A stretch of 63,693 nucleotides of DNA, filler included, from an uncultured Methanosarcinales archaeon (lineage in GTDB: Archaea; Nanobdellota; Nanobdellia; Woesearchaeales; CALCXY01): the NCBI GenBank assembly GCA_964385185.1. It is 4 parts of 4 records of this genome, joined end to end, with 100 filler letters (N's around TTAATTAATTAA, not from the genome) between each part and the next. Parts side by side here need not be neighbours in the genome. Positions count along the whole stretch, not along the records: positions 54,994 to 63,693 come from CAYLOA010000037.1; 3 more parts are not named here. One strand, written 5' to 3'. Position numbers: made by a program. Each line of letters starts with the position of its first letter. The stretch's first letter is position 1. Of this stretch, positions 60,001 through 63,000 are shown one piece after another.

Positions 60001-63000
60001 TATATATTATAGTGTGGTGAAGTACTTTACCACACTAAATCTTAGTAAGAATGGTTACTTTGTCGTCTACATAGAAAGAATGTTCAGCTTGCGCCACCAT
60101 ACCTTTATTTTTGTCAAGTAGTGGTGGGAAATCTTTGATAATCTCCATTTGTTCAAGCTCTTTGAGTGCGAAGTTGACTTTGCCTGCATGATGTTTTTTG
60201 GTGAGCCATCTTGTGGTGAAAGGTAATCCTTTGAAATTTTCAATTTCTTTTAGGATGGTTCTTGTAATCATGGATCTTACAGGTTTTTTATTCATGATCA
60301 TCCAAATACTATTCGGGGAAGATTCGTAAATAATTCCTGCTCCATTTGTTGCAAACGGTTCTATGGCAATGATGTCTCCTCGTTTTAATTCTTGAGTATT
60401 TCCATTATCATAATTGGGTATTGTAGGTGCTGTATGGACGTCGAAAGCTCCTAAACCATGACCTGATAGGTTTCTAATTGGAGAGAGATTGTGAGATGCA
60501 ATAGCATCATAGATTGCTTTTCCTATTTCATTAATGGGAGTTCCAATTTGAACTTTATCTGAGGCAGCTCTTAATGCATCTTGGGCTGCTTTTATGATGT
60601 TAGTATGTTGACCTGAGAGGTCTACAGTGGCAGCGTTGTCACCAATGGCTCCATTAATGCACACACCTACATCTAAGCAGCAGATTTGATCTTCAAATAC
60701 AATTTTATCGTCAGGATGAGCACAATAATGCGCAGCTATTTCATTACATGATATTTGTGAAGGGAATGCTGGGATTGCTTCATGGTCATAGATATATTTG
60801 TCAATTTTGTCTGAGACTTCTAATAGTGTTGCTCCTTTTTTGATTAATCCTTTTCCATACTGGAGTGTTTCAGCTGCTAATTTACCTGCTTGTTTCCAGT
60901 CGTCAAATGTGGGTTCTTCCATAATTTTTGTAAATAGTTTGGAGGTTTTTAAAGGTTGTTGAAAATTATCTAATTTTACTAGGTGGATTATTTGCTTTTG
61001 TTAGAAAATTTACTGATTTTTTTTGTAAGGACTTAATAAGGATTAAAACAAAGAAAATAATAGACCTGAGAAAATCTCAGGCAGGTTCACCGACAACCTT
61101 AATGGTGAATAAAAATATATAAAGGTTATGGTTTAAGTTAAGGTGTGGTGCTCTAATTCGGTATGAGGCCTGATTGAAACTCAGGTGGGTTCACCGACCC
61201 TTACGGGTTCGAATGAATTCCACGGATTTCTGAAATTCCCGTCCACACCGCTTAAAACTATACTTTTAAATAACTTGAATGAATTCTATCCTTCATGACA
61301 ATTAAAAAAGGCGATAAAATCAAAGTAGAGTATACAGGAACACTAGACAACGGTAAAGAATTTGATAGTTCTGAAAAACATGGAAAGCCCTTAGAGTTTG
61401 AAGTGGGTGCAGGACAAATGATCAAAGGTTTTGATGAAGCTGTTGTGGGTATGAAACTTAACGAAGAGAAAGAAATTACATTAAAACCTGAAGATGCTTA
61501 CGGTGAAGAGAAAAAAGAAATGATTAAACCTGTTCCAAAAGATCAATTTCCTAAAGAGAAAGATCCTGAAGAAGGTATGGTATTAGTATTACAAACTCCA
61601 CAAGGTGGACAATTTCCTGTTAAGGTTGTTAAAGTTACTGACAAAGAAGTATTCTTGGACATGAATCATCCTTTAGCTGGAGAAACTCTGACTTTTAAAG
61701 TTAAGATTGTTGGGATTAATTAAGTTTAGGAAATTCTTTTATATTTTTTATTACCCAATCAGCGCCTATTTTTTCAAAGGCGTCTTTTGTATATCCACCA
61801 TTAGCTATTCCTATAAACTTCATTCCTGCACTCTTAGCAGCGACTGCATCATGGATAGTGTCTCCGACATAGACTAATTGATTTGGTGTGTAGGTTTCTA
61901 GAATGGGGTCAAAGAATCGTTCATCTGGTTTTTGAAATTTTACTTCTTCACAGCTGTATATACCTTCAAAGAGCTCTGGATTGAGTCCTGAATTTTCAAT
62001 GATATTATGCAAGGATTCTTTTTCTCTTGAAGACATAATATATAATTTGTAATTATTTTTGAGTTTGTCTAAAGCTTCAACTACTCCTGGAAATGCTAAC
62101 CTTTTTTGTTTGCTTGCAACTTTCCAGTATGCTGTTTTGAATCGTTGTTTGCTATATCCTGGCCAGAAGTTGTGGATTAACTTATCCCAAGGCATTCCAA
62201 AGAGGTTTTTTAGTTGTTCATCAGTTGGAACCTTAATTTTGAGCTTTTTAGCTGCCGCTTGATGGGCTTTTATGCCAATTTCTCGGTAAGGTACCAAAGT
62301 ATCGTCGAAGTCAAAGAGGACAGCTTTAATCATACTATGAATAACTATGTGGTCTCTTAAAAGGTTTTCGATTACCGAACGATCCTCTAGATGATCCTCT
62401 GCTAGGACCTCTTGAAGATCTGTCGTTTCTTGGTGGAAGAACAATTTGTACACGCTCTACATAAGGAGGTTTTACCTTCTCAATGTTTAATTCTGGGTAC
62501 TGTTGTTCAACTCTTCCAAAATTTTGGTAGTCTTGTTCAGACAAGAAGTTAATAACTTTTCCATCAGCTCCTGCTCTTGCAGTTCGTCCAATTCTGTGGA
62601 CGTAATCTTGAGCTTCTTTTGGAATCTCATAATTGTATACGTGAGAAACGTTGTTAATGTGTAATCCTCTTGCTGCAACATCGGTGCAGACTAAGACTCC
62701 TACTTTAGCATCGTTAAACATTTCTAATGTTCTTTGTCTTTTGTTTTGTGTAAATCCACCATGGATCGCAATAGCGTTAATTCCATTAGTTTTTAGATTC
62801 TTTTGTACGATATCAACTGAGATTCTCGTATTACAAAATACCATTACTAATCCTCTTGTTTCATTTTTTAATTCATGGATTAATAATGAAAGTTTAAGGT
62901 TTCTTTGTATGTTGTAGTATATTTGTTTTAGTTTACTTGGATCTACTTGGTTTTGAGCTCGTGCCATAATCTGAGTCTTCATATATTTTTTTGCTAAGTT

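What a model noticed while it worked through the whole genome (the two positions that open the first line are those of the whole stretch)
61142..61250. Four serine-type (class II, G73) tRNA genes that carry Phe (GAA) and Ile (GAU) anticodons, each split by a T-loop 59/60 [...]
Besides its ordinary class I tRNA-Phe(GAA) (C15:6347-6422) and tRNA-Ile(GAU) (C17:7169-7245), the genome holds four tRNA genes missed by ARAGORN and by Rfam at its gathering cut: C37:6149-6257(+), C5:4937-5048(-), C11:18227-18386(-) with anticodon GAA and C18:10911-11028(+) with GAU. All have a long hairpin variable arm, a 3-bp D stem with 11-nt loop, G1-C72 and discriminator G73 (the archaeal tRNA-Ser build) and a 22-35 nt bulge-helix-bulge intron between T-loop positions 59/60 (C11 also a ~50 nt D-loop intron). 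They are either natural mis-sense (Ser-inserting) tRNAs or a second, class II kind of Phe/Ile tRNA; either way a tRNA class not described for archaea.
Evidence so far: Weak Rfam tRNA hits (16-23 bits) in intergenic DNA; in-silico removal of the T-loop insert makes ARAGORN call 85-89 nt tRNA-Phe(gaa)/tRNA-Ile(gat); sequences and folds. hBHBh' geometry read from sequence: T stem, 4-bp helix TTCG:CGAA (TGAA, CGAT), 3-nt bulges, inner helix; cutting 2 nt into each bulge gives T loop TTCGAAT. Sister-species ortholog (G001:C6:40433-40539) is 79% identical with compensatory changes in acceptor and D stems and keeps GAA. A covariance model of 4 sequences matched 58 of 61 Woesearchaeales genomes; of 59 matches over 100 nt that were read (about 25 genomes, this one included) 14 had GAA, 11 GAU, 4 GAG, 10 Ser anticodons, 9 could not be read, 58 of 59 had G73; GAA or [...]
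(Added by a program. Inside this text positions count along the whole contig: they may not be those of the stretch shown here. "Call 12" and the like, gene names such as g00115 and contig names such as C1 are that model's own, and its searches are not shown. The text may have been shortened before it was handed on; [...] marks where a part breaks off. The agent that wrote the report below was given it as the finding of a first reader that could run no searches.)

Follow-up and report, generated by a model that had tools for sequence, protein, structure and literature searches.

The report
Serine-type tRNA with phenylalanine anticodon
A tiny marine DPANN archaeon carries extra, intron-split tRNA genes built like serine tRNAs but bearing anticodons for phenylalanine, isoleucine or leucine codons, each preceded by a partial copy of itself that may encode a controlling antisense RNA, so the cell may mistranslate on purpose and under control.

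Summary
Window 61142-61250(+) is a well-formed class II tRNA gene: G1-C72, G73, 3-bp D stem with an 11-nt loop, 17-nt variable arm. Its anticodon loop is TTGAAAC (GAA), and a 23-nt bulge-helix-bulge intron sits at T-loop 59/60.

The genome holds five such genes (three GAA, two GAU), not four. They come on top of ordinary tRNA-Phe, tRNA-Ile, three tRNA-Ser and three A73 tRNA-Leu.

In relatives I read 73 such genes. All have G73 and a T-loop insert, and 71 have A35. Their anticodons are GAA, GAU, GAG, CAA, CAG, UAG, UAA, AAG and UAU (Phe, Ile and Leu codons). Stems covary strongly.

The family is patchy: 3 of 5 closed or near-closed genomes lack it.

New here: most of these genes carry a copy of their own 5' half 40-100 nt upstream. 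It tracks the gene's own variable arm and anticodon. Read on the opposite strand, it is a hairpin plus oligo-T, suggesting a divergent antisense RNA.

Serine charging is inferred from identity rules. No RNA data exist, so splicing, charging, decoding and the antisense RNA are all untested.

The parts
61142..61250 (+). Intron-containing class II tRNA gene, serine-type body, anticodon GAA (109 nt; 86 nt after removal of the T-loop insert)
   Evidence: Sequence and parts located. Cloverleaf MFE. Rfam tRNA 20.8 bits. Model R1 115 bits; this gene is a training sequence. Covariation in 59 relatives.
61142..61148 (+). Acceptor stem 5' strand GGTGTGG. It pairs with 61243-61249 (CCACACC). The discriminator G73 is at 61250.
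   Evidence: The acceptor helix is 99% paired in 59 sequences, and 6 of 7 pairs show changes on both sides. G73 in 59 of 59.
61151..61167 (+). D arm: 3-bp stem CTC/GAG with the 11-nt loop TAATTCGGTAT
   Evidence: It has the same build as the genome's tRNA-Ser D arms. The helix is 97.7% paired and 3 of 3 pairs covary.
61169..61185 (+). Anticodon arm CCTGA-TTGAAAC-TCAGG; anticodon GAA at 61176-61178, with U33 and A37
   Evidence: The helix is 98.3% paired and 5 of 5 pairs covary. A related contig in two metagenome runs has GAU here, with a compensatory change in the closing pair.
61186..61202 (+). Long variable arm (stem GGGT/ACCC, loop TCACCG)
   Evidence: The helix is 96% paired and 4 of 4 pairs covary. 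The region is 13-23 nt long in the 59 relatives.
61203..61242 (+). T arm split by an intron: T stem 5' strand 61203-61207, T54-A59 TTCGAA 61208-61213, 23-nt BHB intron 61214-61236, T60 at 61237, T stem 3' strand 61238-61242
   Evidence: Geometry read from sequence. The central BHB helix (54-57 with the intron's 3' end) is 97.4% paired in 59 sequences, and A57:U changes to G57:C in 14 of them. A splicing endonuclease and RtcB are encoded.
61116..61123 (.). TATA-like box TATATAAA about 20-27 nt before the tRNA 5' end. Its complement reads TTTATATA, so it could serve both directions.
   Evidence: Sequence. Comparable boxes are seen by eye before the other genes. Promoter use is inferred, not shown.
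61062..61113 (+). Upstream partial copy of the tRNA's own middle part (gene positions 25-76: D stem 3' strand, anticodon arm, variable arm, start of the T arm)
   Evidence: Local self-alignment score 38 against a maximum of 25 in 200 shuffles. The pattern recurs in relatives.
61046..61082 (-). On the opposite strand: an 8-bp hairpin (61082-61064, the complement of the copied anticodon arm) followed by a T-rich tail (to about 61046). This is the putative 3' end of a divergent antisense small RNA.
   Evidence: It is the only terminator-like site in 60800-61400 (0.3 expected in shuffles). The same arrangement is found in 20 of 39 such genes, against 2 of 19 ordinary tRNA-Ser genes and 1-3 of 39 in the three control placements. 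No transcript has been seen.

Best explanation
The locus encodes a real, spliced class II tRNA with a serine-type body and the anticodon GAA. It is one of five supernumerary genes of this kind in the genome.

Shown by sequence and comparison: the cloverleaf, G73, the long variable arm, the BHB intron at 59/60, and strong covariation across relatives. Also shown is membership of a family whose anticodons almost all have A35 and read Phe, Ile or Leu codons, and which sits alongside complete ordinary tRNA sets.

Inferred pathway:
1. The pre-tRNA is cut by the splicing endonuclease and sealed by RtcB.
2. The 86-nt product is charged by the single SerRS, which reads G73 and the variable arm and ignores the anticodon.
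3. The product then competes with tRNA-Phe at UUY codons and inserts serine at a low or conditional level.

Further inference: the self-copy 29-80 nt upstream is the template of a divergent antisense RNA of about 50 nt. Its 5' part would be complementary to the variable arm, and its terminal hairpin loop to the anticodon loop. Pairing with the (pre-)tRNA would limit its maturation, charging or decoding.
For: Structure and family:
- Structure.
- The gene is not an ordinary Phe, Ser or Leu tRNA, and it has Ser-like D and acceptor arms.
- Five genes in the genome.
- Family: 59 of 98 aligned hits have non-Ser anticodons (GAA 25, GAU 15, GAG 6, CAA 3, UAG 2, UAA 2, AAG 2, UAU 2, CAG 1, GUC 1). All 59 have G73 and all 59 have T-loop inserts of 13-76 nt.
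- 14 more were read in a second sample, one of them from another order.
- 0 of 25 intron-less Ser-type genes read had a non-Ser anticodon.
- Covariation: 98% of cells paired against 40-52% for slid partners, and 22 of 28 pairs changed on both sides.

Supernumerary to the standard set:
- G000 has class I Phe and Ile, three Ser and three A73 Leu tRNAs.
- G039 has both an A73 Leu(UAG) and a G73 UAG gene.
- The code is standard: in aEF1A, the 17 TTY codons align to F in 71 of 85 cells and to S in 0; the 26 ATY codons align to I or V in 115 of 130 cells and to S in 0.

Machinery and context:
- One SerRS, one each of IleRS, LeuRS and ValRS, and no extra EF1A/SelB-like factor.
- EndA and RtcB are present.
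- Neighbouring genes are housekeeping genes; none is an integrase or transposase.
- Identity rules: PMC9976931 and PMC7609411, passages read.

Upstream copy:
- It beats all shuffles in 16 of 21 and 10 of 14 such genes, against 0 of 9 and 1 of 10 ordinary tRNA-Ser genes.
- The copy is most like its own gene in 25 of 39 loci.
- In two G187 paralogs each copy carries its own gene's anticodon loop.
- Antisense hairpin plus T tail: 20 of 39 against 2 of 19, with 1-3 of 39 in the control placements (window site).
Against: - No RNA run holds the locus, so expression, splicing, charging and decoding are all untested.
- The variable arm is longer and variable in sequence. The order's ordinary tRNA-Ser keep TTTCC..GGAT, with C and G invariant in 39 of 39, so SerRS might not accept these tRNAs.
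- Core oddities suggest relaxed or different constraints: A8 in place of U8 in 10 of 59; C33 in 3 of 59 and 2 of 14; C37 in a few; one 8-nt loop; and G37 or A37 used without regard to the anticodon.
- Serine at Phe, Ile and Leu codons, which are among the commonest in this 35% GC genome, should be costly.
- No dedicated partner protein was found.
- 3 of 5 closed or near-closed genomes lack the family, so it is dispensable.
- For the antisense RNA: no promoter can be proven from sequence. Only 20 of 39 loci meet the hairpin-plus-T rule, and 14 of 39 upstream regions are not best matched by their own gene. Gene conversion between nearby direct repeats could also keep the copies alike.
- My shuffles kept base composition only. 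The covariation alignment was fitted to the model.
Confidence: 0.45

Rival explanations
1. These are cognate class II isoacceptors. PheRS, IleRS and LeuRS charge them according to the anticodon, so they decode faithfully as a second structural kind of Phe, Ile and Leu tRNA.
For: The anticodons are confined to three chemically similar amino acids, and 71 of 73 have A35. PheRS and IleRS are known to read the anticodon (recalled). The variable arm is not the conserved arm of the order's tRNA-Ser. Faithful decoding would carry no fitness cost.
Against: G73 is invariant, while the genome's own Phe, Ile and Leu tRNAs have A73. G73 is reported as an antideterminant for archaeal LeuRS (PMC9976931). 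One body type shared across three amino acids would need three synthetases to accept a foreign scaffold. Close paralogs differ only in the anticodon, for example GAA and GAU in G007 and G008. Full ordinary sets already exist. G37 and A37 do not follow the usual Phe and Ile rules.
Confidence: 0.15
2. These are tRNA-like RNAs that do not take part in ribosomal decoding. Examples would be a seryl donor for a non-ribosomal reaction, a regulator that uses its anticodon loop for RNA-RNA pairing, or a decoy.
For: Departures from the elongator core: A8 in 10 of 59, and C33, C37 and an 8-nt loop in some. The T stem is distinct and more uniform, with G51-C63 in 55-57 of 59, which could alter elongation-factor binding (inference). 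The family is dispensable in many genomes. The upstream element is complementary to the anticodon loop.
Against: Most genes keep a 7-nt loop with U33 and a purine at position 37, together with full cloverleaf covariation. A non-decoding RNA has no evident reason to restrict position 35 to A. No candidate partner enzyme lies beside the five loci.
Confidence: 0.25
3. These are decaying duplicates of tRNA-Ser genes (pseudogenes) whose anticodons have drifted. The upstream copies are relics of the duplication process, kept alike by gene conversion, and have no function.
For: Partial self-copies also flank some ordinary tRNA genes of this genome: Ser(GGA) upstream and downstream, and Met and Ala downstream. 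The fifth gene has a T-stem mismatch. The distribution is patchy, with lineage-specific bursts.
Against: 98% of stem cells are paired, with 430 double-sided changes across families of the order. G73 is invariant. The anticodons are not random: 71 of 73 have A35. GAA is retained in the same-genus ortholog alongside compensatory stem changes. The upstream copies have a fixed place and strand-specific hairpin-T features, which neutral relics would not keep.
Confidence: 0.05
4. The 'variable arm' is itself a short intron. The mature product would then be an ordinary class I tRNA-Phe.
Against: There is no outer helix or 3-nt bulge geometry around the hairpin (sequence). The arm is homologous in place and build to that of the genome's tRNA-Ser. 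G73 and the 3-bp D stem are not Phe features. The arm's stem covaries as a plain helix in 59 sequences.
Confidence: 0.02

Closest known systems
Ordinary archaeal tRNA-Ser (class II, G73), including this genome's own UGA, GCU and GGA genes
   Same: 7/5 acceptor/T architecture, G1-C72, G73, a 3-bp D stem with an 11-nt loop of similar sequence, and a long variable arm. T-loop 59/60 introns also occur in ordinary tRNA-Ser of the order.
   Different: The anticodon is not a serine one. The variable arm has a longer stem and lacks the conserved TTTCC..GGAT sequence. The T stem is mostly GCGGG/CCCGY. A T-loop insert is present in every member read. An upstream self-copy is present.
tRNA-Ser(CAG) of CUG-clade yeasts, and the competing Ser- and Leu-tRNAs of Ascoidea asiatica (PMC6041473, search listing and abstract only)
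   Same: A serine-type tRNA carries a Leu-box anticodon with A35 and coexists with the ordinary decoder of the same codon. G039 likewise has both an A73 Leu(UAG) gene and a G73 UAG gene.
   Different: The yeast case is eukaryotic, involves one codon, and ended in or near reassignment. Here the host is an archaeon, up to five genes per genome cover Phe, Ile and Leu codons, and the code remains standard.
Bacterial allo-tRNAs (PMC5389517, search listing and abstract; serine identity with unusual anticodons is recalled)
   Same: Both were found only by dedicated searches, and both are class II with non-standard pairing of body and anticodon.
   Different: Allo-tRNAs have 8/4 or 9/3 acceptor/T stems. 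These genes have the canonical 7/5 arrangement, occur in archaea, and carry BHB introns.
Bacterial mistranslating tRNA-Pro variants with Ala, Thr or Asn anticodons in Streptomyces (recalled, not seen in any call)
   Same: Natural, conserved tRNA genes whose body and anticodon disagree.
   Different: As recalled, those come with a dedicated synthetase paralog. Here only single-copy synthetases were found.
Non-canonical BHB tRNA introns of Thermoproteales, Thaumarchaeota and DPANN (recalled; earlier notes e1-1240067 and e1-3972415)
   Same: An hBHBh' intron at 59/60, structurally equivalent to the canonical 37/38 site. The same type is present in this genome's tRNA-Asp and tRNA-Ala.
   Different: Nothing unusual about the intron itself, except that every member of the family read keeps one.
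Antisense-RNA control by loop-loop contact, as in plasmid copy-number RNAs and type I toxin-antitoxin pairs (recalled; PMC3543317 seen as a search listing only)
   Same: A short divergent RNA with a terminal hairpin and U tail, complementary to a structured target encoded next to it.
   Different: The target would be a tRNA rather than an mRNA or primer. The regulator would be encoded by a separate diverged copy, not by the overlapping strand. No transcript has been shown.

Membership tests
tRNA (cloverleaf, Rfam RF00005) | 7-bp acceptor stem, D arm, 5-bp anticodon stem with a 7-nt loop (U33, purine 37), 5-bp T stem | tested here: met
   Sequence and fold. Covariation in all helices.
tRNA (cloverleaf, Rfam RF00005) | Score at or above Rfam's gathering cut-off (29 bits) | tested here: not met
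   20.8 bits. The alignment stops at the variable arm, because the T-loop insert breaks the model.
Archaeal tRNA-Ser | Long variable arm with G73, the serine identity set | tested here: met
   (G73 in 59 of 59). The identity rule comes from PMC9976931 and PMC7609411, passages read.
Archaeal tRNA-Ser | Serine anticodon (NGA or GCU) | tested here: not met
   GAA at 61176-61178.
Archaeal tRNA-Ser | Aminoacylation by SerRS | not testable with these tools
   One SerRS gene is present. There are no charging data.
Archaeal tRNA-Ser | The variable-arm sequence conserved in this order's tRNA-Ser (TTTCC..GGAT) | tested here: not met
   Column counts for 39 Ser-anticodon against 59 non-Ser-anticodon genes.
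tRNA-Phe | Class I body, A73, G37, with anticodon GAA | tested here: not met
   Only the anticodon fits. The genome's real tRNA-Phe (C15) is class I with A73 and G37.
tRNA-Leu | Class II body with A73 and the Leu-type D arm and variable arm | tested here: not met
   This gene has G73. The Leu motifs are found only at the three A73 Leu genes.
Archaeal BHB intron | Two 3-nt bulges on opposite strands, separated by a 4-bp helix and flanked by helices | tested here: met
   Read from sequence. The central helix is 97.4% paired, with one covarying pair, in 59 genes.
Archaeal BHB intron | Removal by the splicing endonuclease and ligase | not testable with these tools
   EndA and RtcB genes are present. 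No RNA run was listed.
allo-tRNA | 8/4 or 9/3 acceptor/T-stem arrangement | tested here: not met
   The arrangement here is 7/5.
Cis-linked antisense small RNA | A transcription unit of its own on the opposite strand (promoter, 3' hairpin with oligo-T) | tested here: inconclusive
   Hairpin plus T tail: window; 20 of 39 against 2 of 19. A shared palindromic TATA box is only a reading of the sequence.
Cis-linked antisense small RNA | Extended complementarity to the target, maintained in evolution | tested here: met
   Predicted duplex of -63 kcal/mol for the window pair. Gene conversion is an alternative cause.

The most novel reading that the evidence does not exclude
Each locus is a two-RNA switch. 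One RNA is a serine-charged mis-sense tRNA that would put Ser at the genome's commonest hydrophobic codons. The other is a divergently transcribed antisense RNA of about 50 nt. Its 5' part would mask the tRNA's variable arm, which is the SerRS identity element, and its hairpin loop would kiss the anticodon loop. This would be an RNA-only module, toxin-antitoxin-like or for regulated mistranslation, released when the antisense RNA falls (stress, starvation for Phe, Ile or Leu, or virus attack).
Probability: 0.2. Interest if true: 0.95.

Novelty: new variant of a known kind. Interest (0 to 1): 0.8.

Why it matters
Natural tRNAs whose body and anticodon disagree are rare. They are known from a few yeasts and bacteria, and I found none described for archaea.

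Here a whole family covers Phe, Ile and Leu codons in many uncultured DPANN archaea, beside intact standard tRNAs. If these tRNAs are charged with serine, these organisms tolerate or exploit programmed mistranslation of hydrophobic codons. If they are charged cognately, three synthetases accept a serine-type class II scaffold, which would overturn the rule that only Ser and Leu tRNAs are class II in archaea. Either result is testable with one charging assay.

The self-copy upstream, which co-varies with each gene's variable arm and anticodon, points to a possible antisense regulator of a tRNA. I know of no such mechanism.

On the practical side, standard tRNA finders miss these genes. Finders that tolerate the intron would annotate them as tRNA-Phe or tRNA-Ile, which would distort tRNA censuses of DPANN genomes.

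Tried and rejected
- **RNA evidence.** No RNA holder was listed for the locus. The four runs laid are DNA contigs only.
- **Earlier notes of this scan.** None for this genome's tRNAs, this sequence or its look-alikes.
- **Dedicated partner protein.** No second SerRS, no extra class Ia synthetase and no SelB/EF1A-like paralog in the genome.
- **Mobile-element cargo.** The 37 neighbouring ORFs scanned hold no integrase or transposase. They are housekeeping genes, plus one ParE-like toxin 1.8 kb from the C5 gene.
- **Codon reassignment.** Rejected by the aEF1A codon check.
- **Replacement of lost Leu tRNAs.** Rejected for G039, which has an A73 Leu(UAG) as well. For G022, an A73 Leu(UAA) but no A73 Leu(CAA) was seen among the hits fetched.
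- **Variable arm as an intron.** Rejected (see rivals).
- **Shifted reading of the loop.** U33-G34-A35 spells UGA, a Ser anticodon, in all GAN members. This fails for the UAG, UAA, CAA, CAG, AAG and UAU members and has no structural basis.
- **C/D-box guide RNA in the upstream element.** No C box was seen on either strand. The Rfam C/D hits are insignificant (16.4 bits, E 2.9).
- **D-region insert of C11 as a BHB intron.** Not resolved.
- **Exact anticodon of the third Leu gene (C4:17726-17892).** Not resolved.
- **My first permissive stem scan.** It gave 787 mostly spurious candidates and was replaced by a GC-filtered scan.
- **Literature.** Searches, and the passages read, gave no description of such archaeal tRNAs or of antisense RNAs to tRNAs.
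Full report
**The window and the locus.** The window is a chain of contigs joined by runs of N. 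The finding lies on contig C37 of a 1.30-Mb, 85-contig, 35% GC genome. Its DNA occurs in marine and hydrothermal-vent metagenomes.

At 61142-61250(+) the sequence folds into a cloverleaf:
- a 7-bp acceptor stem;
- a 3-bp D stem with an 11-nt loop;
- a 5-bp anticodon stem with loop TTGAAAC (GAA, U33, A37);
- a 17-nt variable arm with a 4-bp stem;
- a 5-bp T stem enclosing TTCGAA, 23 extra bases, then T;
- discriminator G73.

The 23 bases form a textbook bulge-helix-bulge motif. The T stem is the outer helix and T54-G57 pairs with TGAA at the insert's end. The bulges AAT and ATT lie on opposite strands, and there is an inner helix. This geometry is the exact counterpart of the canonical 37/38 intron, and cutting 2 nt into each bulge restores TTCGAAT.

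ARAGORN and Rfam at gathering miss the gene. The Rfam tRNA model reaches 20.8 bits.

**The genome's tRNA set.** ARAGORN, the Rfam model and a stem scan of my own give the ordinary set:
- class I tRNA-Phe(GAA) and tRNA-Ile(GAU), both with A73;
- tRNA-Ser UGA, GCU and GGA, all with G73;
- three Leu-type genes with A73 and a distinct D arm and variable arm.

Their D arms and acceptor stems resemble the genome's tRNA-Ser and not its tRNA-Leu.

T-loop 59/60 introns of the same design also split this genome's tRNA-Asp and tRNA-Ala. A splicing endonuclease and RtcB are encoded.

**Relatives: sampling.** I built a covariance model from three of the genes. It hit 97 of 101 genomes of the order, but many hits are ordinary tRNA-Ser.

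I aligned 98 hits from 37 genomes: the best hit of each of 30 genomes, every listed hit over 100 nt, and G000's own. Of the 300 matches, 150 were not listed and so were not read.

**Relatives: what the hits show.** 59 hits carry non-serine anticodons: GAA 25, GAU 15, GAG 6, CAA 3, UAG 2, UAA 2, AAG 2, UAU 2, CAG 1, GUC 1. The other 39 carry serine anticodons. All 59 have G73 and a T-loop insert of 13-76 nt.

A second, phylum-wide sample of 151 genomes added 14 more, in 12 further genomes. Among them are CAG, one GCC, and one GAU gene from a different order of the class. Overall, 71 of the 73 have A35.

Each of the four serine anticodons becomes one of these anticodons by a single change at position 35: GGA to GAA, UGA to UAA, CGA to CAA, and GCU to GAU (inference from the code).

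None of the 25 intron-less Ser-type genes I read had a non-serine anticodon.

The model was trained on intron-bearing GAA and GAU genes, so the sample leans towards such genes.

**Are these functional RNAs?** On the 59 non-serine members, 98% of stem cells form standard pairs, against 40-52% when partners are slid. 22 of 28 pairs show changes on both sides (430 cells), and none of 500 shuffles reaches the covariation score. The alignment was fitted to the model, which favours the structure.

The BHB central helix is 97.4% paired and switches between A57:U and G57:C.

The same-genus ortholog keeps GAA, with compensatory changes in the acceptor and D stems.

A related contig in two metagenome runs has GAU instead of GAA in an 86%-identical body, again with a compensatory change in the closing pair.

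Close paralogs within one genome differ mainly in the anticodon, for example GAA/GAU in G007 and G008, and UAG/CAG in G073.

**Distribution and context.** The family is patchy. Of five closed or near-closed genomes, two have one gene each and three have none at E up to 1. Others have five or more: G000, G008, G052, G073 and G179. I read non-serine members in 23 of the 101 genomes of the first sample, which is a lower bound.

The genes are additional rather than replacements. G039 has both an A73 tRNA-Leu(UAG) and a G73 UAG gene. G022 has a full tRNA-Ser set and an A73 Leu(UAA) beside its G73 CAA gene.

Neighbouring genes in G000 are housekeeping genes (HisRS, methionine aminopeptidase, FKBP, LonB, Kae1, glycogen enzymes, Rad50-like), with no integrase or transposase.

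The genome has one SerRS, single IleRS, LeuRS, ValRS and MetRS, and only the usual translational GTPases.

The code is standard. In aEF1A, this genome's 17 TTY codons align with Phe in 71 of 85 ortholog cells and never with Ser. Its 26 ATY codons align with Ile or Val in 115 of 130 cells and never with Ser.

**Which amino acid?** This is inference. Passages of PMC9976931 state three things. [quoted passage not shown] G73 of Haloferax tRNA-Ser is an antideterminant for LeuRS. Anticodon variants of tRNA-Ser stay serylated and mistranslate. PMC7609411 cites the finding that A73 to G alone turns human tRNA-Leu into a serine acceptor.

One invariant G73 class II body carrying a dozen anticodons is what an anticodon-blind synthetase allows, so serine is the most likely cargo.

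Against this:
- The order's ordinary tRNA-Ser keep a short TTTCC..GGAT arm, whereas the odd family has longer arms of variable sequence.
- 10 of 59 have A8.
- A few have C33, C37 or an 8-nt loop.
- Position 37 is A or G irrespective of the anticodon.

These points fit weak, conditional or non-ribosomal use.

**The upstream self-copy: what it is.** This is a new observation. In the window, 61062-61113 is a same-strand copy of gene positions 25-76. Its self-alignment scores 38, against a maximum of 25 in 200 shuffles. The other four G000 genes also have upstream self-matches: C11 has 33 exact bases, C2 has 39 bases with 4 mismatches, and C5 and C18 are weaker.

**The upstream self-copy: how often it occurs.**

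| Test | Non-Ser-anticodon genes | Ordinary tRNA-Ser genes |
|---|---|---|
| Upstream self-alignment beats all 100 shuffles, sample 1 | 16 of 21 (all to the 5' half, mostly at -96 to -42) | 0 of 9 |
| Downstream flank beats all 100 shuffles, sample 1 | 1 of 21 | 1 of 9 |
| Upstream self-alignment beats all 100 shuffles, sample 2 | 10 of 14 (8 to the 5' half) | 1 of 10 |

The shuffles kept base composition only.

**The upstream self-copy: it tracks its own gene.**
- Among 39 genes, the upstream region's best match is its own gene in 25.
- The G000 and G045 orthologs each mirror their own variable-arm differences.
- Two G187 paralogs share identical far-upstream DNA, yet each copy carries its own gene's anticodon loop, CCGAAAC or TCAAGAC.

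**The upstream self-copy: read on the opposite strand.** In 12 or 13 of the 13 alignments printed, an A-rich tract abuts the 5' end of the copy. A TATA-like box lies between the copy and the gene.

On the opposite strand this gives a hairpin followed by oligo-T.

| Placement tested for hairpin plus T tail | Count |
|---|---|
| Upstream, antisense strand, non-Ser-anticodon genes | 20 of 39 |
| Upstream, antisense strand, ordinary tRNA-Ser genes | 2 of 19 |
| Upstream, sense strand, non-Ser-anticodon genes | 3 of 39 |
| Downstream, antisense strand, non-Ser-anticodon genes | 3 of 39 |
| Downstream, sense strand, non-Ser-anticodon genes | 1 of 39 |

The hairpin lies at -49 to -80 in 16 of the 20. 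In the window it is the only terminator-like site in 600 bases.

The hairpin is built from whichever copied arm abuts the tract, and is sometimes altered so that it pairs better (L005, L006).

**Reading of the upstream element.** The simplest reading is a divergent small RNA of about 50 nt. Its 5' part would be complementary to the tRNA's variable arm, and its 3' hairpin loop to the anticodon loop.

Gene conversion between nearby direct repeats could also keep the copies alike. It does not explain the strand-specific hairpin and T tail.

No RNA run was listed, so neither transcript is shown.

**Verdict.** The family is real, conserved and additional to the standard tRNAs, and it is confined almost entirely to A35 anticodons of Phe, Ile and Leu codons.

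Serine charging with controlled mis-sense decoding is the best-supported mechanism, at roughly 0.45 for the full chain. A non-ribosomal role (0.25) and cognate charging (0.15) remain open.

I found no description of such archaeal tRNAs, or of an antisense partner for a tRNA, in six full-text searches. Supplements were not consulted.

Noticed in passing
It has anticodon GAU with G37, a 38-nt T-loop insert, one A-C mismatch in the T stem, and a 39-nt upstream self-copy with 4 mismatches whose loop reads TTAATAT instead of TTGATGT.
   Followed up: partly
G000:C22:8497-8886 (-): The ordinary tRNA-Ser(GGA) is preceded by three tandem ~59-nt units, each starting with the gene's first 12 bases. A 14-nt copy of its 3' end follows about 100 nt downstream. 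tRNA-Met (C7) and tRNA-Ala(GGC) (C11) have 15-nt copies of internal or 3' parts downstream.
   Followed up: no
G000:C21:9476-9623 (-) and C11:36312-36478 (-): tRNA-Asp(GUC) appears to have three inserts (D loop, 37/38, T-loop 59/60). tRNA-Ala(UGC) has D-loop, anticodon and T-loop inserts. Both were missed by ARAGORN. The T-loop inserts use the same TTCG:CGAA-type helix.
   Followed up: partly
G000:C4:17726-17892 and C10:22025-22159: ARAGORN calls two Leu-type genes (A73) Gly(tcc) and Thr(tgt), because large or multiple introns confuse it. C10 reads as Leu(UAG) with inserts at 30/31 and 38/39. I could not read the anticodon of the C4 gene.
   Followed up: partly
L166 (G173:C16:8562-8683) and L020 (G058:C84:1087-1199): Two family members break the A35 rule, with loops TTGCCAA (GCC, a Gly anticodon) and TTGTCCA (GUC with C37). 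Neither has a significant upstream self-copy.
   Followed up: no
G179 (C10:28476-28858, C10:144739-145083, C1:161424-162143): One genome has 11 model matches at E up to 1e-13, several of them in tandem clusters 100-300 nt apart. The two that I read both carry CAG.
   Followed up: no
window 61113-61225, contigs of runs X5 and X6: A 1.9-kb contig from another population matches the tRNA at 86% identity and carries GAU in place of GAA. Its loose end upstream also holds a variable-arm-like stretch, so the upstream copy seems to be present there too.
   Followed up: partly
G000:C11:18387-18500 (-): Upstream of the C11 gene, an inverted repeat (TTGGTGGAA ... TTCCACCAA) brackets the TATA box. An 11-bp perfect hairpin precedes the 33-nt self-copy.
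   Followed up: no
window 12507-12782, 23070-23169, 54894-54993: The window is not one molecule. It consists of several contigs joined by runs of N, so distances across these points are meaningless.
   Followed up: yes
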